NCBI RefSeq assembly: GCF_013315695.1
Contig: NZ_CP054353.1
Length of the DNA stretch: 64,000 nt
Strand: one strand, 5' to 3'
Origin: Escherichia coli
GTDB taxonomy: Bacteria; Pseudomonadota; Gammaproteobacteria; Enterobacterales; Enterobacteriaceae
Position 1 is the stretch's first letter, and each line of letters opens with the position of its first letter. Below, one piece after another: positions 61,625 through 62,740 of the stretch. The position numbers and the translations under genes are program-made. The notes below the pieces were generated by a model. That model saw nothing but the letters and a program-made list of their open reading frames with translations, was not told the DNA's origin and made no database searches.

Positions 61625-62740
61625 TTGCAACCTGATGATTCTGATAGACTGCATTGCATTATAACCAGTAGGGAGGCGAGGTTAGTTATGTTTTTAGTAT
61701 CATTGTTGAGACGTATTGCATTTAGTTACTACGATTATAAAACTTATAATTTTAATATTGAAAAAACAGACTTTGTTGTCATACATATTCCCGATCAGAT
61801 TGGCGATGCTATGGCCATCTTTCCTGTTATTCGGGCGCTTGAATTGCATAAAATTAAGCATCTATTAATTGTTACGTCGACAATTAATTTAGAAGTCTTT
61901 AATGCGCTCAAACTTGAACAGACTAAATTAACATTAGTCACAATGACTATGCAGGATCACGCAACATTAAAAGAAATAAAAGATTTAGCGAAGAACATAA
62001 CACTGCAATATGGTACGCCGGATCTTTGTATAGAGGCGATGCGTAAAAAGAACCTGAAAACGATGATATTTATCAGTCAGTTGAAAGCAAAAACGAATTT
62101 CCAGGTCGTCGGTTTAACCATGAAGTGCTATTCCCCTTTGTGTAAGAACGCGTCCCGGATGGATCAGAATCTCCGGGCTCCTGTACCCATGACATGGGCA
62201 TTTATGATGCGTGAGGCGGGTTTTCCGGCAGTCAGGTCAATATATGAATTGCCATTAAGCGATGATGTACTCGATGAGGTACGCGAGGAAATGCGATCGT
62301 TAGGATCTTACATTGCGCTCAATTTAGAAGGTAGCTCGCAGGAACGTACATTTTCATTATCGATTGCAGAAAATCTAATAGCAAAAATTCAAAGTGAAAC
62401 AGATATTCCAATAGTGATCGTTTATGGACCCAAAGGGGAAGATAAAGCCAGGGCATTAGTGGATTGTTATAATAATGTCTACCGTTTATCCTTATCACCC
62501 TCGATTAAACGTTCAGCAGCAATCATAAAAGATGCTTATATTGCAATAACTCCTGACACCTCAATATTACATATGGCAAGTGCCTATAATACCCCTGTTG
62601 TTGCAATTTATGCTGATTACAAAACGCGATGGCCCGCAATGGCCGATGTTTCGGAGTCAGTCGTCGTTGGGCAAAAAATTGACAATATAAGTCTGGATGA
62701 ATTCGCAAAGGCATTAAAAAGTGTTTTGGCGAGAATTTGA
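61625..62740 (+). CDS. yeeL: glycosyltransferase family 9 (heptosyltransferase-like) protein YeeL, apparently intact; start may be the Met at 61688
   Basis: 371-aa uninterrupted ORF between shiA and yeeJ; GT9-like C-terminal region. Confidence 0.7.
   Translation: MQPDDSDRLHCIITSREARLVMFLVSLLRRIAFSYYDYKTYNFNIEKTDFVVIHIPDQIGDAMAIFPVIRALELHKIKHLLIVTSTINLEVFNALKLEQTKLTLVTMTMQDHATLKEIKDLAKNITLQYGTPDLCIEAMRKKNLKTMIFISQLKAKTNFQVVGLTMKCYSPLCKNASRMDQNLRAPVPMTWAFMMREAGFPAVRSIYELPLSDDVLDEVREEMRSLGSYIALNLEGSSQERTFSLSIAENLIAKIQSETDIPIVIVYGPKGEDKARALVDCYNNVYRLSLSPSIKRSAAIIKDAYIAITPDTSILHMASAYNTPVVAIYADYKTRWPAMADVSESVVVGQKIDNISLDEFAKALKSVLARI

What the first reader, a model, noticed from the sequence alone, without database searches (positions are those of the whole stretch)
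61625..62740. yeeL is an uninterrupted 371-codon ORF
I recall yeeL being annotated as a disrupted glycosyltransferase-family-9 pseudogene in K-12. Here the ORF is continuous and may encode a functional heptosyltransferase-like enzyme.
Basis: partly seen in the sequence, partly recalled or inferred. Interest (0 to 1): 0.2.

Follow-up and report, generated by a model that had tools for sequence, protein, structure and literature searches.

The report
Intact yeeL glycosyltransferase gene, ordinary
This E. coli strain carries the working-looking version of yeeL, a sugar-transferring enzyme gene that lab strain K-12 lost to a single stop-codon mutation; the intact form is the normal, already catalogued state in most E. 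coli, although nobody has shown what the enzyme does.

Summary
The ORF is real: 61625..62740 (+), 371 codons from a TTG. The gene itself is 350 codons, starting at ATG 61688. SD-like motifs precede that ATG, every ortholog starts there, and the TTG becomes TGG or TAG in other intact strains.

K-12 MG1655 yeeL (b4497) is a pseudogene of identical length. Its only lesion is CAA→TAA at codon 235 (window C62390).

The intact allele is ordinary. The window CDS is identical to RefSeq WP_000480517.1, and its 90% cluster holds 10,923 sequences. Fifteen of 22 evenly sampled complete E. coli genomes are intact. The exact K-12 stop allele is in 764 of 5,426. Other strains carry independent lesions (stop at codon 60, a 1-nt deletion, IS1, ISSen4).

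It is not an ortholog of WaaC, WaaF or WaaQ. Distant relatives lie in Wzy_C-containing glycan clusters, so an accessory LPS-core glycosyltransferase is the best guess, unproven.

Verdict: correct reading, already known, low interest.

The parts
61688..62740 (+). yeeL coding sequence, 350 codons plus TGA. It is the intact ortholog of K-12 pseudogene b4497 and its product is identical to RefSeq WP_000480517.1, 'glycosyltransferase family 9 protein'.
   Evidence: ORF. The CDS has 0 differences from strain 4/1-1, where PGAP annotates WP_000480517.1. Synteny is amn-shiA-yeeL-yeeJ as in K-12.
61625..61687 (+). In-frame 21-codon 5' extension beginning at TTG. It belongs to the mechanical 371-codon ORF but is probably not translated.
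   Evidence: The TTG is replaced by TGG or TAG in strains with intact yeeL. Orthologs and PGAP all start at the ATG.
61670..61681 (+). Shine-Dalgarno-like motifs: AGGGAGG at 61670-61676 and GAGG at 61678-61681. The second ends 6 nt before ATG 61688.
   Evidence: Sequence read. Invariant in all 11 E. coli alleles compared.
61374..61687 (.). Divergent 314-bp shiA-yeeL intergenic region, the presumed promoter region for yeeL.
   Evidence: It differs from K-12 at only 6 of 314 positions. The simple sigma-70 scan found no site upstream of the ATG, so the promoter is not identified.
61805..61807 (+). Codon for Asp40 in the 'IGD' motif, the predicted catalytic base. It aligns to WaaC Asp13.
   Evidence: hhalign of the profile against WaaC and WaaF, numbering checked. 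Gly39 and Asp40 are invariant in 46 of 46 homologs.
62345..62347 (+). Codon for Arg220, which aligns to WaaC Lys192, the donor-phosphate-binding basic residue.
   Evidence: hhalign register. Arg in 40 and Lys in 5 of 46 homologs. The role of WaaC Lys192 is recalled from the published WaaC structure, not tested here.
62390..62392 (+). Codon 235, CAA (Gln). This is the site of the K-12 lesion: TAA in MG1655, caused by C62390 to T.
   Evidence: Pairwise comparison. CAA is present in all nine non-K-12 alleles checked. The exact K-12 88-mer with TAA is in 764 of 5,426 genomes.
62555..62572 (+). Codons for Asp290-Thr291-Ser-Ile-Leu-His295, the nucleotide-sugar binding motif. It aligns to WaaC Asp261-Thr262…His266.
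   Evidence: Thr291 and His295 are invariant and Asp290 is in 44 of 46 homologs. The motif lies downstream of the K-12 stop, so it is missing from the K-12 product.
60057..61373 (-). shiA (shikimate transporter), the divergent neighbour. Context only.
62868..64000 (-). Degraded remnant of the inverse-autotransporter adhesin gene yeeJ, convergent with yeeL. Context only; it runs off the end of the window.
   Evidence: Broken ORFs at 62868-63344 and 63357-63977. PGAP in the matching strain: 'frameshifted; internal stop; missing N-terminus and C-terminus'.

Best explanation
Window 61688-62740 is the intact allele of yeeL, the gene that K-12 carries as nonsense pseudogene b4497.

It encodes a 350-aa soluble or peripheral-membrane glycosyltransferase of CAZy family GT9 (GT-B fold, inverting). 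It belongs to a narrow Enterobacterales subfamily distinct from the core heptosyltransferases WaaC, WaaF and WaaQ.

Proposed mechanism (inferred):
- The C-terminal Rossmann-like domain binds a nucleotide sugar, most likely ADP-L-glycero-D-manno-heptose, through Asp290/Thr291/His295 and Arg220.
- Asp40 in the N-terminal domain deprotonates an acceptor hydroxyl.
- That hydroxyl attacks C1 with inversion.
- The acceptor is most likely a lipid-linked surface glycan, namely the LPS core at the cytoplasmic face of the inner membrane. This would make YeeL an accessory, non-essential, strain-variable core decoration enzyme.

The gene is low-GC and horizontally acquired. It is kept under purifying selection in most E. 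coli but is dispensable, and has been lost repeatedly by point mutation and IS insertion, K-12 among them.

Shown here: the ORF, the start codon, the K-12 lesion, allele frequencies, fold, conserved catalytic residues and purifying selection. Inferred: enzymatic activity, the donor and the acceptor.
For: Identity and lesion: synteny amn-shiA-yeeL-yeeJ and 96% nt identity to b4497. The two genes are the same length, and the only disabling difference is CAA to TAA at codon 235.

Sequence: profile against PDB gives 3TOV at 2e-22, WaaF at 5e-15 and WaaC at 4e-11 over residues 32-342. hhalign probability is 97.8-98.3%.

Catalytic residues: Gly39-Asp40, Thr291 and His295 are invariant; Asp290 is in 44 of 46; Arg/Lys220 is in 45 of 46.

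Selection: dN/dS is 0.08-0.25 between most intact alleles.

Surface-glycan link:
- The 33-36% identical full-length relatives P0110, P0113 and P0117 sit beside Wzy_C (O-antigen ligase/polymerase), Bac_transf, WecG, GT1/GT2/GT4, and in one case a second GT9 gene.
- P0149 is a natural Wzy_C plus YeeL-like fusion.
- A 61%-identical ortholog is a low-GC insert between the sheath and tail-fibre genes of a P2-like prophage, the usual place for lysogenic-conversion genes.

Phenotype hint: Tn5 insertions in yeeL of ST131 strain EC958 were enriched (logFC 7.46) in a hypermotility TraDIS screen. The paper did not follow this up with a targeted mutant (PMC5425062).

Horizontal origin: GC is 38.5% against 50.5% for shiA and 49.3% for amn. 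Orthologs occupy different loci in different genera.
Against: No biochemical or genetic demonstration of activity exists in the searched literature. yeeL appears there only as a neutral integration site in K-12 engineering and in one TraDIS table.

The gene is not in the waa cluster, and in Enterobacterales it is never next to other glycan genes.

NCBIfam scores for heptosyltransferases I, II and III are far below their cut-offs: 38.9 against 185, 19.1 against 135, and 16.1 against 170. Donor and acceptor therefore cannot be transferred by orthology.

No sigma-70-like promoter was found upstream.

At least five independent inactivations occur among sampled E. coli, so the function is dispensable.

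The Wzy_C associations are in relatives only 33-36% identical.
Confidence: 0.55

Rival explanations
1. YeeL is a protein glycosyltransferase of the TibC/Aah (BAHT) kind. It would heptosylate the neighbouring inverse-autotransporter adhesin YeeJ, or other autotransporters, in the cytoplasm before export.
Against: - The genes are convergent, not an operon.
- Orthologous loci in Pseudocitrobacter and in the 72%-identity lineage have yeeL with no yeeJ.
- Here yeeL is intact while yeeJ is wrecked. In K-12 the reverse is true.
- The YeeL profile finds WaaC, WaaF and 3TOV but not TibC at E<=1.
- There is no conserved multi-Cys metal site.
Confidence: 0.07
2. The ORF is intact but biologically inert. 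It would be a horizontally acquired, transcriptionally silent gene on its way to decay, open in this strain only because no lesion has hit it yet.
For: - Low GC of 38.5%, typical of H-NS-silenced foreign DNA (the silencing itself is inferred).
- No promoter-like site upstream.
- Frequent independent inactivation: stops at codons 60 and 235, a 1-nt deletion, IS1, ISSen4, and a deletion.
- K-12 grows normally without it.
Against: - dN/dS of 0.08-0.25 across alleles with dS up to 0.13 shows long-term purifying selection.
- Catalytic residues are invariant down to about 20% identity.
- Orthologs are retained at 52-66% identity in other genera.
- 15 of 22 evenly sampled genomes are intact.
- Insertions give an apparent phenotype in EC958.
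Confidence: 0.15
3. YeeL is an active GT9-fold enzyme, but its acceptor is not the LPS core. It could be another envelope polymer (ECA, capsule, colanic acid, O-unit on undecaprenyl phosphate) or a small molecule, and the donor may not be ADP-heptose.
For: - It is not orthologous to any characterised heptosyltransferase.
- The closest structure, 3TOV, is itself uncharacterised.
- Relatives sit beside Bac_transf/WecG-type undecaprenyl-phosphate pathway genes as well as Wzy_C.
- The subfamily has its own N-terminal helix with an invariant Asp16-Tyr17 that WaaC and WaaF lack.
Against: All characterised bacterial GT9 members act on LPS/LOS inner core, or on proteins in the TibC branch (established knowledge). 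The fusion is to Wzy_C, the O-antigen ligase family that acts on core. The MFS-transporter adjacency that might suggest a small-molecule role is coincidental, because the transporters are unrelated.
Confidence: 0.2

Closest known systems
E. coli K-12 yeeL (b4497; formerly split as b1979/b1980), annotated pseudogene
   Same: Same locus (amn-shiA-yeeL-yeeJ), same length (1,053 bp), 96% nt identity, same start codon and SD-like motif.
   Different: K-12 has TAA at codon 235, which truncates the product to 234 aa. The lost part includes the Asp290-Thr291…His295 donor-binding motif. The window has CAA and encodes the full 350 aa. There are 15 further amino-acid differences.
RefSeq WP_000480517.1 and allelic 'glycosyltransferase family 9 protein' entries of E. 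coli (cluster P0001, 10,923 member sequences)
   Same: The window CDS has 0 nucleotide differences from the gene encoding WP_000480517.1 in strain 4/1-1. The same protein is annotated in strain 21368.
   Different: Nothing. This is the same, already catalogued protein.
LPS heptosyltransferases WaaC (HepI; PDB 2GT1/2H1H/6DFE) and WaaF (HepII; PDB 1PSW), CAZy GT9
   Different: - Only 12-14% identity.
- Far below the NCBIfam equivalog cut-offs.
- Encoded outside the waa cluster.
- Has an extra N-terminal helix with an invariant Asp-Tyr.
- Dispensable, and polymorphic for presence or integrity.
Veillonella parvula GT9 protein, PDB 3TOV (structural-genomics entry, function unknown)
   Different: 14% identity, different phylum, and uncharacterised, so it gives no functional information.
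TibC/Aah bacterial autotransporter heptosyltransferases (PDB 4RAP)
   Same: GT-B fold related to GT9. In E. coli the gene is adjacent to an adhesin gene.
   Different: - No conserved Cys cluster.
- The adjacency to yeeJ is convergent and not conserved.

Membership tests
Ortholog of E. coli K-12 yeeL (b4497) | Same chromosomal locus and collinear high-identity alignment | tested here: met
   amn-shiA-yeeL-yeeJ order. The 1,053-bp alignment has no gaps and 42 substitutions. The upstream 314 bp is nearly identical.
Ortholog of E. coli K-12 yeeL (b4497) | K-12 copy is disrupted while this copy is open | tested here: met
   K-12 has TAA at codon 235 and the window has CAA. PGAP notes 'internal stop' for K-12.
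CAZy GT9 / Pfam PF01075 Glyco_transf_9 | Pfam model hit above the gathering threshold | tested here: met
   30.1 bits against a cut-off of 22, E=3.8e-7. The hit covers only profile positions 130-223 of 247 (residues 232-321). All 46 aligned homologs match PF01075.
CAZy GT9 / Pfam PF01075 Glyco_transf_9 | Complete two-domain GT-B fold superposable on solved GT9 enzymes | tested here: met
   [not shown]
CAZy GT9 / Pfam PF01075 Glyco_transf_9 | N-terminal catalytic Asp in the Gly-Asp motif after strand 1 (WaaC Asp13) | tested here: met
   YeeL Gly39-Asp40 aligns to WaaC Gly12-Asp13 and is invariant in 46 of 46 homologs.
CAZy GT9 / Pfam PF01075 Glyco_transf_9 | C-terminal Asp-Thr-x-x-x-His sugar-nucleotide motif (WaaC Asp261/Thr262/His266) and a basic phosphate ligand (WaaC Lys192) | tested here: met
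   Asp290 (44 of 46), Thr291 (46 of 46), His295 (46 of 46), and Arg220 (Arg or Lys in 45 of 46).
CAZy GT9 / Pfam PF01075 Glyco_transf_9 | Glycosyl transfer from ADP-heptose (or another NDP-sugar) with inversion | not testable with these tools
   Needs an enzyme assay. No report was found in the searched literature.
Core LPS heptosyltransferases I/II/III (WaaC/WaaF/WaaQ equivalogs) | Score above the NCBIfam equivalog cut-off | tested here: not met
   TIGR02193: 38.9 against 185.3. TIGR02195: 19.1 against 134.6. TIGR02201: 16.1 against 170.2. The PRK models score 13-14 against 437-569.
Core LPS heptosyltransferases I/II/III (WaaC/WaaF/WaaQ equivalogs) | Encoded in the waa (rfa) core-biosynthesis cluster | tested here: not met
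   yeeL lies between shiA and yeeJ. In K-12 the waa cluster is about 1.74 Mb away, at 3.79-3.81 Mb against 2.05 Mb.
TibC/Aah autotransporter heptosyltransferases (BAHT) | Detectable sequence relationship to TibC/Aah | tested here: not met
   The profile search of all PDB sequences at E<=1 lists WaaC, WaaF and 3TOV but no TibC chain.
TibC/Aah autotransporter heptosyltransferases (BAHT) | Closest structural neighbour is TibC | tested here: not met
   [not shown]
TibC/Aah autotransporter heptosyltransferases (BAHT) | Conserved genetic linkage with a substrate autotransporter gene | tested here: not met
   The genes are convergent. yeeJ is absent from orthologous loci L011 and L012-L014. Integrity of the two genes is uncoupled, both in this window and in K-12.
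TibC/Aah autotransporter heptosyltransferases (BAHT) | Iron-binding cysteine cluster (feature recalled from the TibC structure papers) | tested here: not met
   YeeL has four Cys (114, 147, 152, 260). None is invariant, and Cys260 is in only 3 of 27 close relatives.

The most novel reading that the evidence does not exclude
YeeL is a functional accessory LPS-core (or O-antigen-attachment-site) glycosyltransferase. It would be a fifth GT9 enzyme of E. coli that K-12-centred work has missed because K-12 carries a nonsense allele.

On this reading its strain-variable presence or integrity tunes surface properties such as motility, phage adsorption and serum or immune recognition. Relatives of the gene can move as prophage cargo.
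Probability: 0.35. Interest if true: 0.45.

Novelty: already known. Interest (0 to 1): 0.12.

Why it matters
As a sequence observation it matters little. The intact allele is the common state, is already in RefSeq as a named protein in thousands of genomes, and the K-12 pseudogene status is textbook annotation.

The residual value is as a reminder that a structurally complete GT9 enzyme remains uncharacterised. It is under purifying selection and present in most pathogenic and commensal E. coli (O157:H7, O145, O103, B2/ExPEC types). It has been overlooked because the reference strain lacks it, and K-12 engineers treat the locus as junk DNA. If it modifies the LPS core, it could affect phage receptors, motility and innate-immune recognition. 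The experiment to find out is simple.

Tried and rejected
- **TTG 61625 as the start.** Rejected: it is not conserved, has no SD, and orthologs start at the ATG.
- **Single-sequence search of the PDB.** Only a borderline WaaF hit at E=1.4. A profile was needed.
- **Phage origin.** tblastn against 50,697 GenBank phages found nothing. phrog_27389 matches at 755 bits but is essentially YeeL itself, probably drawn from predicted prophage regions, so it is not independent evidence. Only the Erwinia aphidicola prophage context stands.
- **Plasmid carriage.** The high-identity 'plasmid' hits are megabase-sized records, meaning mislabelled chromosomes or chimeras. Distant hits are generic GT9.
- **Defence-system role.** No PADLOC match.
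- **Conserved MFS-transporter linkage.** ShiA in E. coli and MFS genes in Erwinia and Rosenbergiella looked like a pattern, but the transporters are mutually unrelated at E>1.
- **Adhesin-glycosylation link to yeeJ.** Rejected on synteny, orientation, and structure or sequence distance to TibC.
- **Promoter scan.** Nothing upstream of yeeL, and no more sites than in shuffled sequence.
- **Literature.** 'yeeL' alone mostly matches author names. Focused searches gave only uses as an integration site and one TraDIS table.

Full report
**Observation**

The ORF listing reports an ORF at 61625..62740 (+), 371 aa, starting with TTG. The sequence was read directly.

The biologically meaningful gene is shorter. 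An ATG at 61688 is preceded by AGGGAGG (61670-61676) and GAGG (61678-61681, 6 nt upstream). NCBI's PGAP pipeline annotates a 1,053-bp (350-codon) CDS from this ATG in every intact strain examined. Orthologs from Escherichia albertii, Pseudocitrobacter, Erwinia, Rosenbergiella and others all begin at the equivalent Met. The TTG is TGG in four intact-allele strains and in K-12, and TAG in a fifth intact strain, whereas the SD-like motif and the ATG never vary. The count of '371 codons' therefore includes a 21-codon artefact of ORF extension.

**The K-12 lesion**

MG1655 annotates yeeL (b4497) as a pseudogene at 2052276-2053328 (-), between yeeJ and shiA. PGAP on another K-12 record gives 'glycosyltransferase family 9 protein; internal stop'.

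Aligning the window CDS to the K-12 sequence gives equal length, no gaps, 42 substitutions and 16 amino-acid-level differences. The only disabling one is CAA→TAA at codon 235 (window 62390 C, K-12 T). All nine other E. coli alleles I examined have CAA there, so TAA is the derived state.

The truncated K-12 product would be 234 aa. It would lack the last 116 residues, including the donor-binding motif described below.

**How unusual is an intact copy?**

It is not unusual.

- The 1.5-kb region is found in 5,286 of 5,426 complete E. coli genomes.
- An 88-mer carrying the K-12 TAA is present exactly in 764 genomes, including K-12 derivatives, strain C and other strains. The window's CAA 88-mer is present exactly in 1,844.
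- Of 22 rows I evaluated from the evenly spaced ranking, 15 are annotated as intact. These include O157:H7, O145:H28 and O103:H2.
- The other seven are disrupted in different ways: the K-12 stop, TTA→TAA at codon 60 (ET729), a 1-nt deletion at nucleotide 177 (LCP17S3_I1), IS1 (AVS0756), ISSen4 (CAVP773), one truncated match and one near-complete deletion. The ISSen4 disruption, the truncated match and the deletion were judged's coverage and feature columns, not from fetched annotation.
- The window CDS is nucleotide-identical to that of strain 4/1-1, which encodes WP_000480517.1.
- The corresponding 90%-identity protein cluster has 10,923 member sequences, all named 'glycosyltransferase family 9 protein'.

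The finding is therefore already known in the databases.

**Is the product a complete, plausible enzyme?**

By direct Pfam scan the match is weak and partial: PF01075 at 30 bits against a cut-off of 22, covering profile positions 130-223 of 247. NCBIfam heptosyltransferase I, II and III equivalogs score far below their cut-offs. So YeeL is not an ortholog of WaaC, WaaF or WaaQ.

An exhaustive HMMER search found full-length relatives down to about 24% identity. A 46-sequence alignment built from them (A1) gave three lines of evidence:

- **Profile against the PDB.** It matches GT9 structures over both domains: 3TOV at E=2e-22, WaaF at 5e-15, and WaaC at 4e-11 over residues 32-342.
- **Catalytic residues.** Profile alignment to K-12 WaaC and WaaF, with numbering checked, gives three correspondences. 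YeeL Gly39-Asp40 matches WaaC Gly12-Asp13. Arg220 matches Lys192. Asp290-Thr291…His295 matches Asp261-Thr262…His266. These positions are invariant or nearly so across the 46 homologs. The catalytic roles of the WaaC residues are taken from my recollection of the published WaaC structural work, not tested here.

Pairwise dN/dS between intact alleles is mostly 0.08-0.25, with dS up to 0.13. That indicates purifying selection.

**What might it act on?**

yeeL is 38.5% GC, against 50.5% for shiA and 49.3% for amn. This signature of foreign origin is typical of surface-polysaccharide genes.

Its neighbours vary between genera:

| Lineage | Context |
|---|---|
| Pseudocitrobacter | amn-shiA-yeeL-mtfA, no yeeJ |
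| 72%-identity lineage | hchA-yeeL-mtfA-shiA-amn |
| Another lineage (P0070) | between maeB and the eut operon |
| Erwinia persicina, Rosenbergiella | downstream of MFS genes |
| Erwinia aphidicola | inside a P2-like prophage |

The MFS genes in Erwinia persicina and Rosenbergiella are unrelated to each other and to ShiA. In Erwinia aphidicola the gene is a 42.5%-GC insert on the opposite strand, between the tail-sheath and tail-fibre genes of a prophage that is otherwise about 61% GC.

More distant full-length relatives (33-36% identity) are informative. Three of the four with usable context lie beside Wzy_C ligase/polymerase genes, initiating phosphotransferases, WecG, and GT1/GT2/GT4 genes; one also has a second GT9 gene. 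One 777-aa protein fuses a Wzy_C domain to a full YeeL-like domain.

Together with the structural proximity to WaaC and WaaF, this favours a lipid-linked surface-glycan acceptor, most simply the LPS core, over a protein acceptor.

The adhesin-glycosylation idea suggested by the yeeJ adjacency is weak, for four reasons:

- The genes are convergent.
- The linkage is not conserved.
- yeeJ is degraded here while yeeL is intact, and the reverse holds in K-12.
- TibC is a much poorer match.

**Literature**

Within the searchable library, yeeL appears as a neutral integration site in K-12 metabolic engineering. It also appears once as a hit in a TraDIS hypermotility screen of ST131 strain EC958 (EC958_2299, logFC 7.46). 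The authors state that such hits still need confirmation with defined mutants (PMC5425062). I found no biochemical characterisation.

**Verdict**

The hedged interpretation, an intact and possibly functional heptosyltransferase-like enzyme, is supported.

The corrections are the start codon (350 codons, not 371) and the nature of the K-12 lesion (a single nonsense substitution). The feature is already catalogued and is the majority state in the species, so novelty is 'already known' and interest is low.

The only open question is the enzyme's substrate. An accessory LPS-core glycosyltransferase is the best-supported guess, at about 0.35-0.55 depending on how specifically it is stated.

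Noticed in passing
window 62868-64000 (-): The inverse-autotransporter adhesin gene yeeJ is reduced to broken fragments here (ORFs 62868-63344 and 63357-63977). 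PGAP in the matching strain notes: frameshifted, internal stop, missing both termini. K-12 shows the reverse pattern, with yeeJ intact and yeeL dead. Homology to K-12 ends near window 62885.
   Followed up: partly
window 58501-60111 (-): the ORF listing gives a 536-aa amn ORF that overlaps the 3' end of shiA. The annotated AMP nucleosidase is 484 aa, so this is the same longest-ORF artefact that inflates yeeL to 371 codons.
   Followed up: no
L004 8001-9134 (Erwinia aphidicola CP188307): A 61%-identical yeeL ortholog sits on the opposite strand between the tail-sheath (phrog_23) and tail-fibre (phrog_381) genes of a P2-like prophage. It is 42.5% GC in a roughly 61% GC phage, which is the classic position for a lysogenic-conversion or 'moron' gene.
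   Followed up: partly
protein P0149 (777 aa, metagenomic): A natural fusion of an O-antigen-ligase-type Wzy_C domain (residues 193-348) with a full-length YeeL-like GT9 domain (residues 446-773; E=9.5e-20 to YeeL).
   Followed up: partly
window 61688-62737 product against PHROGs: phrog_27389 ('unknown function', 350 positions) matches YeeL end to end at 755 bits, so the family is effectively YeeL itself. No GenBank phage genome encodes a homolog, which suggests the PHROG was seeded from predicted prophage regions.
   Followed up: partly
window 61688-61770 (YeeL residues 1-28): The YeeL subfamily has an N-terminal helix (residues 2-15) followed by an Asp16-Tyr17 pair. Among the 27 full-length YeeL-like sequences, Asp16 is in 27 of 27 and Tyr17 in 26 of 27. 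WaaC and WaaF lack this segment and start directly at strand 1. It could be an acceptor-binding or membrane-association element.
   Followed up: no
protein P0074: A 353-aa protein 75% identical to YeeL is labelled 'glutathione transporter [Rattus norvegicus]' in nr. This is almost certainly bacterial contamination or a mislabel in a eukaryotic submission.
   Followed up: no
L029 (strain 4/1-1, region presumed to correspond to window ~14000-64000; collinearity not checked): The surrounding region is the asn-tRNA cluster (three tRNA-Asn genes). It carries island cargo downstream of cobU: a TonB-dependent receptor, IbrB-like and PAPS-reductase-like genes, many IS fragments, and a yaiP/yaiO-like glycosyltransferase cluster. 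This is consistent with the window's low overall GC (47.3%) and an ExPEC-type genome.
   Followed up: no
(plasmid collection): Several records labelled as plasmids, including a 1.04-Mb 'Klebsiella pneumoniae plasmid' and 4.8-4.9-Mb 'E. coli plasmids', carry 95-99% identical yeeL. These look like mislabelled chromosomes or assembly chimeras rather than plasmid carriage.
   Followed up: no
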